Source: a virus
IMG/VR virus record: IMGVR_UViG_3300027763_000034
Location: 52,156 to 116,155 of that record
Length of the DNA stretch: 64,000 nucleotides
Direction: 5' to 3' (one strand)
Positions 11,371 through 22,842 of the stretch are shown here, one piece after another; within the stretch, counting starts at the first letter, position 1; the number at the start of each line of letters is the position of its first letter. The notes beneath the pieces are model-generated. The model did no database searches. It was not told where the DNA came from and saw only the letters and a list, made by a program, of their open reading frames with translations. The position numbers were made by a program, and so were the translations under genes.

Positions 11371-11429
11371 CGGCGTGTCGGCTTGACAATGTCAAGCTGG
11401 CCCGCAAAGGCACGGGGTCGGGCGTGTCG
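11368..11429 (+). repeat. Inter-cassette repeat with GCTTGAC-N3-GTCAAGC palindrome; partial copies at 12953-13000 and 13961-14000
   Basis: TAACGGCGTGTCGGCTTGACAAWGTCAAGCTGGCCCGCAA is shared with 13961; AGCTGGCCCGCAAAGGCACGGGGTCGGGCGTGTC is shared with the ~12967-13000 copy. Confidence 0.9.
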
Positions 11430-11580
11430 TTACGGGCTTTGCATAGAACCCCTAGAATTTTGTGATTTTTATCACATAGGTTGAGCGTCTCAGTATTTGG
11501 ATTTACTGGCTAGTAATTATCTTATGTCAGTGGGTTCGTGTATAATGTCTACTATAACAACAACGAAAGAAGGTCAATTC

Positions 11581-11700
11581 ATGAACCTAGATGAATTCAA
11601 GGCGCATGTTATCGCCACCCGTCAAGCAAGCAAGGCAGAAGCCTTGTCAGTGCTATCTGCTACAATGTCAGTATCAACAACAACGAAAGAAGGAAAGTAA
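11581..11700 (+). CDS. Small early protein (39 aa) whose 3' half is a duplicated promoter cassette
   Basis: RBS at 11561-11573; track start 11497 lies upstream of the promoter. Confidence 0.55.
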   Translation: MNLDEFKAHVIATRQASKAEALSVLSATMSVSTTTKEGK

Positions 11701-11894
11701 TGTCAGCAAATGTTTACAATGTAACCGATTTACTAATCGGAAAAACTTATCGCTCAAATTCCGTAACTGGAGAAATTATCTCAGCGGAAATTCACCCGCA
11801 AGCAATTTGGTATGAAGGCGCAGAAGCGTATCGTGTCCAAATTAGAAAAAATACTGGCGGTTATACTTATCGCAGTTTGGCGGTAAATAAATGA
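11700..11894 (+). CDS. Small beta-rich early protein
   Basis: Own promoter and RBS; shares TG.I..EIHPQA with 14717-14896. Confidence 0.7.
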   Translation: MSANVYNVTDLLIGKTYRSNSVTGEIISAEIHPQAIWYEGAEAYRVQIRKNTGGYTYRSLAVNK

Positions 11895-12466
11895 ACACAA
11901 TGATTGACGAAAATGAATTTTATACAATTCACGAACCAACTTTTATGTGTTGTGATGAAAGCCAATTTCGTTATGTGTGTAAAGCACACGGCGAAAGTAT
12001 GGGTTGCTACTTTTGCGAATTTGACTACTCTAATGATTGCGAGGAACAACACTAATGGGATACATTGAAATTTTCCGAATGGATAACGAAGGTGCTGGCT
12101 GGGTAGATTTATCCGAAGCAACACCCGATGAATTATTCAACATTGAATTAGGTCTAGTCAATGAAGGTGCGTTTGACGGCTCTTTATTTATGAATGGGGA
12201 AAACGAATGAGCGAAATTGCTGGAATGTGGATTTGCTCTAATTGCGATACTCTCGCCATTGTGTCAGTGGAAACTGATACAATACTTGTAACACAATGTA
12301 AATGCGTAACTAACGAAAGGGAAACTAATGAATAAATACACTTTTGGCGTTTGGCTAGACATAGACGCAGAGGATGAAAATCAAGCGTTATCTTTATTTG
12401 ATGAGGTTGTAAAGAAAAATCCTTTTGTTTCAGACTCTTATTGTTTTGAATGGAAAGAGGTTGCTA

Positions 12467-12670
12467 ATGTATAAAATAACTCTAGCCTATGACGGAAATG
12501 CCCCACACTGGCAGGGCGATTACTATGATGAAATGGAAGCGTGGTCAGCGTTTTTCAAATTCACCGACTGGGGATTTGCTGATGAATTCTCAACTGTAAA
12601 TATTTACACTCCCGAATTGAAATGCTACACAAAAAACTTTTATCGTAGCGGAATGGTGGTAGCAAAATGA
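12467..12670 (+). CDS. Small early protein
   Basis: GAGG RBS before ATG 12467. Confidence 0.6.
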   Translation: MYKITLAYDGNAPHWQGDYYDEMEAWSAFFKFTDWGFADEFSTVNIYTPELKCYTKNFYRSGMVVAK

Positions 12671-12858
12671 TGACACGCAAAGACTATGTGGCAACGGCAG
12701 AAATTCTAAAGTTTGCTAGCGACAAAACGCACCCTGCTTTATTTTCTAAAATCGTAAATGATTTTGCTGAAATGTTTGCGAAAGATAATGAGCGATTTGA
12801 TGTAAAACGATTTCACGAAGCGAGTGGATACAATGTTCCTAAACTCACTTCAAGATAA
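12667..12858 (+). CDS. Small early protein
   Basis: MTRKDY..A.IL...F..DN.RFD..RF pattern, also seen at the C-terminus of 37209-37718. Confidence 0.7.
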   Translation: MMTRKDYVATAEILKFASDKTHPALFSKIVNDFAEMFAKDNERFDVKRFHEASGYNVPKLTSR

Positions 12859-13100
12859 GGTAAAACGAATTCAGGAATTGCGTCGCAGTAATGCGGCGCA
12901 ACCTGTTCGTAATAAAAAAAAATACACACGCAAGATCAAACATAAAAATAAACTTGACAATTAGCCAGCTGGCCCGCAAAGGCACGGGGTCGGGCGTGTC
13001 TTTAAGGGTGTGATCAATATCACCCTGGAAATTTGGGCCAGGATTGGAATATGTCGGTCCATTCTGCTATACTTGCCATTCAACCAACGATTGGGCTCCA

Positions 13101-13820
13101 ATGAAATTAAAACGTTCTAATGATAGAAAGGTGGCTAACCTTGTCACAAAAAATGGAAAGCAAGCCGCAATTGCGAACACGTTCGGATTACCTGCAGGAA
13201 AGAATTATTCATGCCCTGGTGCCACTAGTATTTGTGAGAGTGTTTGCTACGCAGGAAAACTTGAAAAGTTATTCCCAGGAGTAAAAACTAATCTGCTACA
13301 CAATTGGGATCTTCTGCGTAATGCGGATATGGATACAATGCTTATTCTATTGGATGAGATGATTGTTGAATTTATTGCTGATTGTGAAAAGAAAGACGCT
13401 CCTAAATTATTCCGTATCCACTGGGACGGCGATTTCTTCAATGATACTTATACCTATGCCTGGAAAGTAATTATTGAAAATCATCCCGATGTGCAATTTT
13501 GGGTTTACACACGTGTAAAGTCTGCAGCGCTTATTCTAAAGGATGTATCTAATCTATCTCTTTACTATTCCACCGACGATGAAAATAAAGAAATAGCATT
13601 CGATTTGAAAACTAATTCTAAGGTCCGCCTTGCTTACCTAGGCAAGACATTCGCTGCAACCGAAGACACAATGAAAGAGTTGACTGGTAAGCCTGGTGCT
13701 AAGTGTCCTGAGAATATGAAGAGTATTCCACTTATCTCTAGCAATGGGTCCGCCTGCGTATCTTGTGGCCTATGTGTATACGGTAAAGCGGATATTAGAT
13801 TTTCTGCGAGTAAAAAATAA
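13101..13820 (+). CDS. GP88-like (radical-SAM-related, Cys-rich) phage protein
   Basis: FGLPAG..SCPGA...C...CYA, FRIHWDGDF, FWVYTR, C..CGLC; start corrected to 13101, downstream of promoter 13052. Confidence 0.75.
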   Translation: MKLKRSNDRKVANLVTKNGKQAAIANTFGLPAGKNYSCPGATSICESVCYAGKLEKLFPGVKTNLLHNWDLLRNADMDTMLILLDEMIVEFIADCEKKDAPKLFRIHWDGDFFNDTYTYAWKVIIENHPDVQFWVYTRVKSAALILKDVSNLSLYYSTDDENKEIAFDLKTNSKVRLAYLGKTFAATEDTMKELTGKPGAKCPENMKSIPLISSNGSACVSCGLCVYGKADIRFSASKK

Positions 13821-21012: not shown

Positions 21013-21313
21013 AGATAAACTAAACGAATGTTTAAAGATTCTAGACACCACCGACCTTGGCTTGTCATTAGTATGGCTGTGGACATGGTCCACAATTAAC
21101 AACATTTTTGAGGATGAGACCTACAAGCAGAACTGCACCATAGATGACATGTGGGACCACCTCTGCGAGGCCGTGGAGGCTGGTATGGGCTTCTCCCTAG
21201 AGTACGGGGCGGAACAACATCAGGAAGACGTCCTTGAATGGATGATGAATCGTGAGTACATTGTCGACACAATGTTTGAAGAAGAGGAAGAAGACGAAGA
21301 TGAGGATGAGTGA
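20996..21313 (+). CDS. Acidic hypothetical protein
   Basis: GGGAG RBS; poly-D/E tail. Confidence 0.65.
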   Translation: MKPADKDKLNECLKILDTTDLGLSLVWLWTWSTINNIFEDETYKQNCTIDDMWDHLCEAVEAGMGFSLEYGAEQHQEDVLEWMMNREYIVDTMFEEEEEDEDEDE

Positions 21314-21532
21314 TCAATACATCGATGAGATCCTTAACAGGGCCCAACAGCTTTTGTGGGGCGGATCAGAAACAGAGAACATCGAAGCACACAACCTTAT
21401 ATCTAATCTAATTAAAGAAAGAGTAGAACAAGTTTCTAACTGAGGGCAAGATTTTTAGTTTACGGTGACTATTTACAAACCCGTGAAAAGTTGCTATAAT
21501 TAAAGCAAACCGATCTAGAAAGGATCAAACAC

Positions 21533-21682
21533 ATGACAACAAAGCGTGAATATCTAAAGCAGCAAGGCATCACAGTAGGTGTACGTGGCCGCTTCTCAGG
21601 AGCAGCTAAGGTAGCTCTACAAGAAGCTGCAGCAAAGGGAATTACATTTACATCAGAGGCGCCTGCTAACAAGGCCAAGTAA
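21533..21682 (+). CDS. Lsr2 DNA-binding-domain-like microprotein (49 aa)
   Basis: Not in track; REYLKQQGITVGVRGRFS resembles the Lsr2 C-terminal RGR AT-hook; own TGcTATAAT promoter and AAAGGA RBS. Confidence 0.65.
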   Translation: MTTKREYLKQQGITVGVRGRFSGAAKVALQEAAAKGITFTSEAPANKAK

Positions 21683-21689
21683 GCCAGGG

Positions 21690-21734
21690 ACGGGGTTAGG
21701 GCTTCGTTGGTCCTTGACCCCGTTTCTTATTTTT
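21690..21734 (+). terminator. Terminator hairpin with UUCGUUG loop
   Basis: ACGGGGTTAGGGC/GTCCTTGACCCCGT stem followed by a U-rich tract. Confidence 0.7.
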
Positions 21735-21764
21735 GATACAATAGACAGTTAGGCGGAGGCGGAT

Positions 21765-22133
21765 ATGAAAACACCAGAAAGCAAAGTAGCAGAATCATTA
21801 GTTAATTTAATGGATGACCATTGGTTTAATCCAACAATGTTTGGTCGATATTTGGCAGAACAGCCAATGTATACACTTGACCGCATTATGGAAATGGTTG
21901 TATCGATTATATCAGAACAAGCAAAGATATATGATGTATATCTAAATAGGGGTACATCGTCTGAAGGTCTATTACTAGCCAATGAACTGAATGAATGTAT
22001 CAAAGCATATCAAGAAGATAATAGTTTAATTAATCTTAAGTTACCTTCTCGTTCCTACAAAGTAGGGACGGTTCCAAAGGAACCTAAAGTTAATATATTT
22101 GGATGGAAAGAAGAAACAGATCCATTCAGTTAG
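21765..22133 (+). CDS. Hypothetical protein
   Basis: TGaTACAAT promoter and GGAGG RBS. Confidence 0.7.
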   Translation: MKTPESKVAESLVNLMDDHWFNPTMFGRYLAEQPMYTLDRIMEMVVSIISEQAKIYDVYLNRGTSSEGLLLANELNECIKAYQEDNSLINLKLPSRSYKVGTVPKEPKVNIFGWKEETDPFS

Positions 22134-22842
22134 TATTAGGCATATGACAATGAATAGATGAATGCCTGGTTAGATAGATAAACATATCTAGCCCAAATTA
22201 TCCACAGGGTTATCCACATCCTGTGGATTTTTTGTATGCTGTGGGCATGTGGGCAACATTTTGCTTTTACGACACATGATCCAAATCCCTGAAATTTCTA
22301 GCTCATGGGCCAAATTTTTCATTTACGAAGCCTTGACAAAAATCCCTGAAAATGCTACACAATATGTCTAAATAGATAATTATACATATAGAATGTCGAC
22401 AAATGTGTAGAGAATATGGCAAAATAAGCAAAAATCGCTCCATAAATCTATTGACAAATATGGATCAATATGCTGCTATATATGGCTATTGACATTACGT
22501 TTAAGATGGGGTATGCTCAATTACATATGTATGTTTAACTATATATAACTATAGTATATGATATGCTATCTATAGTATAAATTCTCCACTATGCTCCACT
22601 TTACTCCACTATATAAGCCTTCTAAGGGCTATATGAGGCTGGATAAATGGGAGGGGGATATAGGAGTTAGGAGCTAATTTATTGCAATTTGCTCTTATTC
22701 TTAGATGGTCTTCTAGACCAATCTGGAGCTTTATGTGCAGTAGTTCCTCTAGATGTAGAATCTATTAGGGCTTTATTCTTATCTAATGCTTCTTGGGCAT
22801 ATTGAAGCTGTTGATCCCAATTGAACTTCCGTTTTTTTGCCA

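What the first reader, a model, noticed from the sequence alone, without database searches (positions are those of the whole stretch)
11414..22351. Unrecognised tripartite motif GGG-N13-TTACG-N15-CCCTG(A/G)AA, nine co-oriented copies
Seen: TTACG at 11430, 14025, 15889, 17193, 19024, 21460 and 22267 with exact 13/15 spacing; 22323 and 13002 (TTAAG) have a 16-nt second spacer, and the right arm varies at 11450 and 21480. Six copies also have GCCC 30-33 bp upstream of TTACG. Spacer sequence varies freely and even hosts the DnaA, CRP and GACAC boxes, yet its length is held. That implies a large protein footprint. I cannot match it to a known site. Options (inference): phage repressor, recombination site, stepwise DNA-injection signal, or antisense alternative-sigma promoter (CAGGG-N15-CGTAA).
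Basis: seen in the sequence. Interest (0 to 1): 0.7.

Follow-up and report, generated by a model that had tools for sequence, protein, structure and literature searches.

The report
Fixed-frame control site of phage early genes
A strictly spaced, about 60-bp DNA motif heads most early transcription units in a widespread family of uncultured freshwater actinobacterial phages; it is probably the docking site of an unidentified regulator, and host transcription-factor sites are packed into its spacers.

Summary
Nine co-oriented copies lie at the stated coordinates, where shuffled sequence gives none.

The motif recurs in about 100 related phage contigs. The first spacer is always 13 nt and the second is 15 or 16 nt. 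The full consensus is longer: GCCCnCA-N4-TGnGGG-N13-TTACGa-N15/16-CCCTGRAA-nTTT.

- **What it is not:** an RNA structure, a coding sequence, a sigma-70/sigmaA promoter or a host regulon. There is no covariation, the folds are inconsistent, Rfam gives no hit and no frame stays open. Bacterial genomes hold it only at the chance rate.
- **Where it sits:** it is the first element after the upstream gene. It lies 8-119 nt, unphased, before TGTCRG-N10-TAnnnT (RecA-NDp/PafBC-type) promoters.
- **Overlap with promoters:** in two classes it overlaps a sigmaA-type promoter.
- **What fills the spacers:** DnaA boxes (65% of all perfect boxes in the family's DNA), CRP-like sites and GACAC boxes.
- **Setting:** the host is an actinobacterium. 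The gene island matches the terminal-repeat early-gene array of Streptomyces BE phages.

Best reading (confidence 0.4): an operator for an unidentified, probably phage-encoded factor that gates host-factor-driven early promoters.

Main rival: a promoter for an unrecognised sigma-like factor.

The parts
11400..11461 (+). Copy 1. GCCC at 11400, GGG at 11414, TTACG at 11430, right arm CCCTAGAA at 11450. The left spacer holds a GACAC box (GGCGTGTC).
12972..13034 (+). Copy 2. GGG at 12986, central box TTAAG at 13002, N16 spacer, CCCTGGAA at 13023. A CRP-like site at 13009-13024 fills the right spacer and overlaps the CCC.
13993..14056 (+). Copy 3. Exact match, with two direct DnaA boxes in the spacers (14013 and 14034).
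15859..15920 (+). Copy 4. Exact match, with two inverted DnaA boxes in the spacers (15877 and 15900).
17163..17224 (+). Copy 5. Exact match, directly after tRNA-Asp. A CRP-like site at 17189-17204 is centred on TTACG. The promoter follows 11 nt after the right arm.
18991..19055 (+). Copy 6. Exact match, directly after the intrinsic terminator at 18959-18991.
21444..21491 (+). Copy 7. Right arm CCCGTGAA and no GCCC. The arm lies inside the spacer of a sigmaA-type promoter (TTTACA-17-TATAAT, 21472-21500).
22251..22298 (+). Copy 8. Exact match and first of a tandem pair, directly after the terminator at 22200-22236 whose stem holds two DnaA boxes.
22307..22355 (+). Copy 9. N16 spacer. A TTGACA hexamer sits in its right spacer and TACACAAT follows the right arm. 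No TGTCRG promoter lies downstream.
11525..11546 (+). TGTCRG-N10-TAnnnT promoter downstream of copy 1. The equivalents for copies 2-6 are 13052-13073, 14103-14124, 15974-15995, 17232-17253 and 19105-19126.
11461..11476 (+). CRP-like TGTGA-N6-TCACA site. The others are at 14054-14069, 15920-15935 and 19071-19086. All lie 42-72 nt before the -10 hexamer.
22134..22678 (.). A 545-bp non-coding region between convergent genes. It holds the terminator with DnaA boxes, the tandem motif copies, AT-rich repeats and a TTGACA-17-TATGCT promoter (22489-22517). It is a candidate origin or genome-terminus region.

Best explanation
The motif is a duplex-DNA recognition site of about 58-62 bp. It is made of an imperfect 16-bp palindrome (CCCnCA-N4-TGnGGG) followed at fixed distances by two asymmetric boxes (TTACGa and aAAAnCCCTGRAAnTTT).

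It forms the upstream end of a 150-200-bp regulatory cassette. In order, the cassette holds a hairpin or terminator, the motif, host-factor sites, and a PafBC-type or sigmaA-type promoter. This cassette heads the main transcription units of the phage's early, terminal-array genes.

I infer that a sequence-specific factor peculiar to this phage family binds the blocks. It is probably an unrecognised early or virion protein, or a small complex. Because only the blocks and their spacing are read, the spacers have been free to acquire DnaA, CRP-like and GACAC boxes.

Binding would then compete with these host factors, or directly occlude the promoter where the right block lies in a promoter spacer. 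That would gate or shut off early transcription.

Shown: the anatomy, conservation, location and exclusions. Inferred: that a protein binds, what it is, and that its effect is negative.
For: - **Real and selected:** 0 matches in shuffles. About 100 related contigs carry 229 unique copies. The spacing is invariant in copies that were not selected for it. In gene-anchored ortholog alignments the blocks are as conserved as the -10 and TGTCAG elements, while the bases next to TTACG vary freely.
- **Duplex DNA, not RNA or coding:** there is no covariation for either possible helix. Folds are inconsistent, with only 2 of 9 copies at z below -3. Rfam gives no hit and no reading frame stays open.
- **Tied to transcription units:** all copies lie on the + strand of the only + strand gene island. 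181 of 229 copies are followed within 120 nt by a TGTCRG promoter. The remainder are mainly the tandem copies of the non-coding region, one of which carries a sigmaA-like -35 hexamer, as does copy 7.
- **Operator-like placement:** the right block lies inside the spacer of a sigmaA-type promoter at 21472-21500 and in the 22307 class. 141 of 230 copies have a CRP-like site overlapping them or starting 0-6 nt after them. 191 of 292 perfect DnaA boxes lie inside the motif frames. Where a CRP half-site overlaps the central box, the box becomes ATACG or TTAAG, which shows two constraints acting on the same bases.
- **Phage-specific:** a 20-base pattern over 185,579 species' genomes returns 13 scattered hits, which is the chance level. 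The bipartite half gives 8 single hits in 401 Actinomycetes genomes against 3 for the control.
Against: - No DNA-binding protein other than WhiB is recognisable anywhere in the genome, so the proposed factor has no candidate gene.
- The blocks are asymmetric and are not repeats of each other. That is unusual for oligomeric repressors and more typical of RNA polymerase recognition.
- Only 28% of the family's TGTCRG promoters carry the motif. It is therefore not a general switch for the early class.
- The sign of regulation is inferred from position only.
Confidence: 0.4

Rival explanations
1. The motif is itself a promoter (P1), set in tandem with the PafBC-type promoter. TTACG would act as a -35-like box, the 15/16-nt gap as the promoter spacer and CCCTGRAA as a long -10-like box. 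The upstream palindrome would be an activator site centred near -58. It would be read by host RNA polymerase carrying an unrecognised phage sigma-like or appropriating factor.
For: - The motif is asymmetric, has several blocks, and points the same way as the genes.
- The second spacer tolerates exactly one extra base, as promoter spacers do.
- The geometry resembles sigma-28-type promoters (TAAA-N15-GCCGATAA; my own knowledge).
- Transcription-factor boxes inside the spacers are typical of regulated promoters.
- Intergenic repeats in other viruses have proved to be promoters (PMC8707807 abstract).
Against: - The blocks do not match sigmaA -35/-10 rules; no A-11/T-7 hexamer sits at a workable distance.
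- Pfam finds no sigma or RNA polymerase gene in the genome.
- No host regulon with the bipartite consensus was found.
- The operons already have conserved promoters close to their starts, one of them leaderless.
- The strictly fixed GGG at N13 is hard to assign to the flexible alpha C-terminal domain.
Confidence: 0.2
2. The copies are binding sites (iteron-like) for a phage replication initiator that works with host DnaA. The tandem copies at 22251/22307, next to DnaA boxes, AT-rich repeats and a promoter, would form the origin. The dispersed copies would couple early transcription to replication or act as secondary origins.
For: - 65% of perfect DnaA boxes lie inside the frames.
- Tandem direct copies 56 bp apart sit in a 545-bp non-coding, AT-rich region with a promoter.
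- The phage has its own DnaB-like helicase, DnaG-like primase and DnaE polymerase but no recognised initiator.
Against: - Seven of the nine copies are single, spread over 10 kb, and each heads a transcription unit.
- Most copies hold no DnaA box.
- The orientation of the DnaA boxes within the frame is not conserved: direct, inverted or reversed.
Confidence: 0.12
3. The motif is a polar insulator or roadblock. A bound protein would stop read-through from the upstream unit, and at the end of the island would protect the convergent genes or the origin.
For: - It is always the first element after the upstream stop codon or hairpin.
- It directly follows canonical terminators at 18959 and 22200.
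- It is doubled at the end of the island, where no TGTCRG promoter follows.
- It is co-oriented with transcription, like mycobacteriophage L5 stoperators (my own knowledge).
Against: - Good intrinsic terminators already precede some copies.
- The left palindrome folds too weakly, and with a mismatched fourth pair, to terminate on its own.
- This reading does not explain why host-factor boxes crowd the spacers.
Confidence: 0.1
4. The motif has no dedicated binding factor. The blocks would be the best-kept parts of a duplicated cassette whose main role is to provide homology for modular gene shuffling, as T4 PeSL cassettes do.
For: Indel and replacement breakpoints between relatives fall at the cassettes. 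For example, L010 and L039 lack 12953-13987 between copies 2 and 3, and L033 switches identity at 12952/13098.
Against: - Three to eight invariant bases at exact spacing give too little homology for recombination.
- Invariance across paralogues whose spacers have been wholly replaced indicates selection on the blocks themselves.
Confidence: 0.08
5. The motif is an RNA element: a processing site, leader or antisense target read in the transcript.
For: Copy 5 follows a tRNA with no terminator between them, so at least that copy is transcribed. Two copies fold well, with z of -3.9 and -3.2.
Against: No shared fold, no covariation and no Rfam match. Some copies sit behind strong terminators.
Confidence: 0.04

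Closest known systems
PeSL cassettes of T4-type phages (PMC2839356, PMC4122927)
   Same: Both are composite terminator/stem-loop plus early-promoter cassettes, repeated between small genes of unknown function. Indels between related phages break at the cassettes.
   Different: PeSLs consist of a stem-loop and a sigma-70 early promoter only. Here an extra 60-bp block motif with fixed spacers sits between the hairpin and the promoter. The promoters are actinobacterial PafBC-type, and there is no sequence similarity to PeSLs.
Stoperators of mycobacteriophage L5 and cluster A phages (my own knowledge)
   Same: Both are asymmetric sites in an actinophage, found in short intergenic spaces, in many copies, all oriented with transcription. 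Stoperators are read by a phage protein that blocks transcription.
   Different: Stoperators are single 13-14-bp sites spread over the whole genome of a temperate phage with a known repressor. This motif is about 60 bp with several blocks, is confined to the early island, and has no recognisable repressor gene.
Injection-stop region of phage T5 (Davison, bioRxiv 10.1101/866236)
   Same: Both have host DnaA boxes and repeats in non-coding DNA of an early-gene region that lies in a long terminal repeat. For this phage that location is inferred from homology with Streptomyces BE phages.
   Different: T5 has one large untranslated region with 8 DnaA boxes in a set order. Here the boxes sit singly or in pairs inside nine dispersed frames, each at the head of an operon.
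Host-takeover module in the terminal redundancy of Bacillus phage SPO1 (my own knowledge)
   Same: Both are arrays of many small early genes, each unit with its own strong promoter and terminator. In SPO1, a phage DNA-binding protein (TF1) has preferred sites at the early promoters.
   Different: No HU-type gene was found here. The SPO1 sites are not built from blocks and spacers.
Sigma-28 (FliA/WhiG) promoters, TAAA-N15-GCCGATAA (my own knowledge)
   Same: Both have a short upstream box, a 15-nt spacer and an 8-nt downstream box.
   Different: The boxes differ in sequence. No such sigma gene is present in the phage, and no such regulon was seen in the actinobacterial genomes searched.

Membership tests
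SigmaA/sigma-70 promoter | A -35 hexamer like TTGACA, a 16-19-nt spacer, and a -10 hexamer with A at position 2 and T at position 6. | tested here: not met
   The block composition offers no such pair in either orientation. The consensus scan finds sigmaA-like pairs only where a separate promoter overlaps a copy (21472-21500).
RecA-NDp / PafBC-dependent promoter | TGTCRGTG, 8 nt, TAnnnT (consensus from my own knowledge; PafBC link from 10.1101/612655). | tested here: not met
   The motif blocks do not match. The pattern is found instead 8-119 nt downstream of the motif.
Structured RNA (Rfam family, RNase III-type site or intrinsic terminator) | A shared secondary structure supported by compensatory changes. 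| tested here: not met
   Pairing is at the chance level for GGG..CCC and for the inner pair of the left palindrome. Folds are inconsistent and Rfam gives no hit.
Protein-coding or peptide repeat | An open frame through all copies. | tested here: not met
   The best frame is open in only 58% of 154 unique copies. The distances between blocks are not multiples of three.
Host transcription-factor regulon site | Several copies per host genome, upstream of genes. | tested here: not met
   13 scattered single hits in 185,579 species' genomes. 8 single hits against 3 control hits in 401 Actinomycetes genomes. The true host genome may not be among those searched.
PeSL-type mobile regulatory cassette | Terminator or stem-loop plus early promoter, repeated; breakpoints of gene gain and loss lie at the cassettes. 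| tested here: met
   Hairpins or terminators and promoters flank the motif. Synteny breaks fall at 12952/13988, 13090/13098 and 17257. This describes how it behaves, not shared ancestry: there is no sequence similarity to T4 PeSLs.
L5-type stoperator | A single short asymmetric site, spread over the whole genome, with a cognate repressor gene. | tested here: not met
   Orientation with transcription is met. The site size, genome-wide spread and repressor gene are not.
Replication origin with iterons | Three or more direct repeats at regular spacing beside an AT-rich unwinding region and DnaA boxes, near an initiator gene. | tested here: inconclusive
   Two tandem copies, DnaA boxes and AT-rich repeats lie at 22134-22678. 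No initiator gene was recognised, and the other seven copies are dispersed.
T5-type injection stop signal | A cis site in the terminal repeat where DNA entry halts. | not testable with these tools
   Only the DnaA boxes and the inferred terminal-array location are shared.

The most novel reading that the evidence does not exclude
The motif is a fixed-geometry docking frame. One phage factor, or a modified RNA polymerase, reads four invariant blocks. Interchangeable host-factor sites (DnaA, CRP-like, GACAC/WhiA-like) are slotted into the spacers in different registers. Each early operon would then compute a different combination of host states through one shared protein-DNA scaffold. Equally novel would be a promoter class for an unrecognised phage sigma-like factor.
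Probability: 0.2. Interest if true: 0.75.

Novelty: new variant of a known kind. Interest (0 to 1): 0.5.

Why it matters
Early-gene control in actinobacterial phages is poorly known, and for phages of uncultured freshwater Actinobacteria it is essentially unknown.

This element is as conserved as the promoters themselves across about 100 environmental phage genomes. It holds most of the family's DnaA boxes and overlaps sites that look like CRP sites.

If a protein reads it, that protein is a handle on how these phages couple takeover of the cell to host replication and nutritional state. The block-and-spacer design would also be a natural example of modular promoter engineering.

The practical gain is a precise 62-bp probe and a set of natural spacer variants for binding and reporter tests.

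Tried and rejected
- **Chance:** rejected by the shuffles.
- **Hairpin across the whole motif, and the left GCCC..GGG hairpin:** a few copies looked compensatory, such as CCCGCA/TGCGGG, CCCCCA/TGGGGG and CCCCTA/TAGGGG. Over all copies the variable pair is matched in only 30 of 88. The GGG..CCC extension pairs at the chance level.
- **RNase III-type or other RNA element:** folds are inconsistent and Rfam is empty.
- **Hidden peptide on either strand:** rejected.
- **SigmaA, ECF, sigma-28 and sigma-54 promoter readings in both orientations:** no acceptable -10 element. 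An antisense TTGACT-18-TATGAT in copy 6 is not kept in orthologues.
- **An upstream TTGACA box as a promoter firing at GGG:** present in only 29% of copies, with no consistent -10.
- **Host regulon:** not found.
- **Search for a phage regulator:** Pfam and PHROGs over 180 or so ORFs found only WhiB and one sub-threshold Lsr2-like hit. Two protein-atlas look-ups of small basic early proteins gave nothing.
- **Helical phasing of the motif relative to the downstream promoter:** absent, with R of 0.10-0.27.
- **Streptomyces phage EGole:** its homologous array has cassettes but not this motif.
- **Literature search for the string CCCTGAAA:** uninformative.

Full report
**Observation.** The exact pattern GGG-N13-TTACG-N15-CCCTGRAA occurs five times in the window, always on the + strand. 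None of 100 dinucleotide-preserving shuffles contains it. Allowing two mismatches gives nine matches against 0.05 expected.

The window is the last 64 kb of a 116,155-bp viral contig, and every match in that genome lies at window 11414-22351. GCCC lies 14-17 nt before GGG in six of them. A tenth weak match at 20768 covers a ribosome-binding site and start codon and is chance.

**Conservation.** A scan of IMG/VR with the exact pattern returned 109 stretches. About 100 of these are nucleotide-level relatives of this phage at 75-90% identity, and six are unrelated singletons.

- With a relaxed pattern there are 229 unique copies.
- TTACG and CCCTGAAA are separated by 15 nt (144 copies) or 16 nt (49 copies), and never by 8-14 or 17-23 nt.
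- Variant central boxes (TTAAG, TTATG, ATACG) keep the same register.
- Of 109 unique copies that the scan pattern could not have selected, 100 have GGG exactly 16 nt before the central box.

A redundancy-reduced set of copies, together with the column counts of the upstream flank, gives the full consensus gCCCnCAnAnnT(G/A)n-GGG-N13-TTACGa-N9-aAAAn-CCCTG(A/G)AA-nTTT. So the GGG is the right arm of an imperfect 16-bp palindrome, and the whole site spans about 60 bp. GCCC is at -14 to -17 in 78% of copies.

I also made alignments of orthologous intergenic regions anchored only on the downstream genes. In these, the three blocks are as invariant as the -10 and TGTCAG promoter elements, while the bases next to TTACG vary freely.

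**What it is not.**
- **An RNA or DNA hairpin.** The pair next to GGG..CCC is complementary in 42 of 137 copies against 34 expected. The variable pair of the left palindrome is matched in 30 of 88. RNA folds of the nine copies share no structure, and only two beat shuffled controls. Rfam has no match.
- **Coding.** No frame is open in more than 58% of copies.
- **A sigmaA promoter.** This holds in either orientation.
- **A host regulon.** A 20-base version of the pattern found 13 scattered single hits in 185,579 species' genomes, which is the chance number. The bipartite half found 8 single hits against 3 control hits in 401 genomes of the class Actinomycetes, including many of 1.3-1.5 Mb.

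**Context.** The copies lie in the only + strand gene island of the genome, window 10.3-22.1 kb, which consists of small ORFs.

The host is an actinobacterium, on four grounds:
- The phage encodes a WhiB protein.
- Its DnaE polymerase is 58% identical to those of Streptomyces BE-cluster phages.
- The island has 16 matches to TGTCRG-N10-TAnnnT.
- One of these promoters is followed after seven bases by the ATG of its gene, giving a leaderless start.

Each motif copy is the first element after the upstream stop codon or hairpin. At 18959 and 22200 it follows a canonical terminator. In 181 of 229 unique copies a TGTCRG promoter follows on the same strand within 120 nt.

The distance to that promoter is not helically phased (R = 0.10-0.27). 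The CRP-like TGTGA-N6-TCACA sites of the same cassettes are phased. They lie 42, 52, 62 or 72 nt before the -10 hexamer (R = 0.64 at a 10-bp period).

The CRP-like site therefore keeps its register to the promoter while the motif slides over it. The site lies in the left spacer, on the central box, in the right spacer, or 1-4 nt downstream. Where they overlap, the central box changes to ATACG or TTAAG.

Overall, 141 of 230 copies have such a site within or just after them. 191 of the 292 perfect DnaA boxes in 1.1 Mb of family DNA lie inside the 44-45-bp frames.

In copy 7 and in the 22307 class, the right block sits in the spacer of a sigmaA-type promoter. The copies without a TGTCRG promoter are almost all the tandem copies of a 545-bp non-coding, AT-rich region between convergent genes, at 22134-22678.

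**Wider setting.** The contig begins with the primase and helicase genes and ends in the DnaE gene, so it is a permuted circle. The DUF932 gene of the island has its homologue at two places in each Streptomyces BE phage record, which means it lies in their long terminal repeat.

In phage EGole that repeat is an array of about 20 small genes, each with a 120-190-bp cassette. Those cassettes lack this motif. The island is thus probably the terminal-repeat early array of this phage, comparable in design to the pre-early region of T5 and the host-takeover module of SPO1 (my own knowledge).

Between relatives, deletions and replacements break at the cassettes, as described for the PeSL cassettes of T4-type phages (PMC4122927).

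**Interpretation.** The blocks are read on duplex DNA by something that tolerates any spacer sequence but not a change in spacer length. The element is specific to this phage family, is tied to the heads of early transcription units, overlaps core promoters in two classes, and overlaps host-factor sites in most others.

I therefore favour an operator for an unidentified factor that gates or shuts off early transcription (confidence 0.4).

The main weakness is that no candidate protein exists. Pfam and PHROGs scans of essentially all ORFs found no sigma, HTH or HU-type protein.

The asymmetry of the site, and the one-base tolerance of the second spacer, are what one expects of a promoter. A promoter for an unrecognised sigma-like factor is therefore the first rival (0.2). 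Initiator binding sites (0.12), a polar insulator (0.1), homology for recombination only (0.08) and an RNA element (0.04) follow.

**Verdict.** This is a real, strongly selected cis element that I could not match to any family I compared it with. It is a new variant of the known kind "phage early-region regulatory cassette". Its unusual trait is fixed-length spacers that hold most of the family's DnaA boxes. Interest is moderate (0.5), because the mechanism cannot be settled without a host or binding experiments.

Noticed in passing
window 10273-20480: There are sixteen matches to TGTCRG-N10-TAnnnT (RecA-NDp/PafBC type), all on the + strand of the island. The one at 20066 is inside a gene and doubtful. 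Only six carry the block motif upstream. The promoter at 17232 is followed after 7 nt by an ATG, giving a leaderless start.
   Followed up: partly
window 11461, 13009, 14054, 15920, 17189, 19071, and family loci L007-L115: CRP-like TGTGA-N6-TCACA sites are strongly phased. Their centres lie 42, 52, 62 or 72 nt before the -10 hexamer (R=0.64 at a 10-bp period, 416 sites). This fits face-of-helix activation of the PafBC-type promoters by a host CRP/GlxR-like protein.
   Followed up: partly
window 22134-22678: This 545-bp non-coding region lies between convergent genes. It holds a terminator with two DnaA boxes in its stem, tandem motif copies, a long inverted repeat (CTACACAATATGTC ... GACAAATGTGTAG), AT-rich repeats (CTCCAC x3) and a TTGACA-17-TATGCT promoter. 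It is a candidate replication origin or genome terminus.
   Followed up: partly
G000 contig ends (C1:572-3031 and window 61161-63971): The DnaG-like primase and DnaB-like helicase sit at the contig start and the DnaE polymerase at its end, so the contig is a permuted circle. By homology with Streptomyces BE phages, the island at 10.1-22.7 kb may be a collapsed long terminal repeat.
   Followed up: partly
window 21533-21682: A 49-aa basic protein (pI 10.4) has a VRGRF motif and a sub-threshold hit to the Lsr2 DNA-binding domain (E=0.068). It may be a counter-silencer. Streptomyces phage EGole has an annotated Lsr2-like gene in the homologous array.
   Followed up: partly
window 38019-38396 (-): A WhiB-family protein of 125 aa with the four-cysteine motif. 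It marks the host as an actinobacterium.
   Followed up: partly
window 10248, 10517, 11372, 11421, 12993, 13965, 14078: GGCGTGTC/GACACGCC boxes occur in opposite orientations on the two sides of several cassettes. The GACAC core is the WhiA motif of Streptomyces (my own knowledge). Upstream copies are followed by a TTGACA hexamer inside a hairpin whose partner strand co-varies.
   Followed up: no
loci L010, L039, L033 against window 12953-13987: Relatives differ by whole-gene deletions or replacements whose ends fall at the regulatory cassettes. For example, the GP88-like gene at 13044-13820 is absent from L010 and L039.
   Followed up: partly
L124 (CAYYOB010000109.1, 3251 bp): A 3-kb contig binned as an uncultured Polynucleobacter MAG carries two typical cassettes of this phage family. 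It is phage DNA in the bin, not evidence for the host.
   Followed up: partly
window 39412-42102 (-): An 896-aa ORF sits in a local GC-rich patch (45% against 36%) and has no PHROG match.
   Followed up: no
L129 (Streptomyces phage EGole 1-11000): The terminal-repeat gene array has its own repeated cassette: a GC hairpin with a UUCG loop, then TGTCGGG..CGGACA, then a TAGACT -10. The CGGACA box also occurs in this phage's cassettes 27-30 nt after the motif.
   Followed up: no
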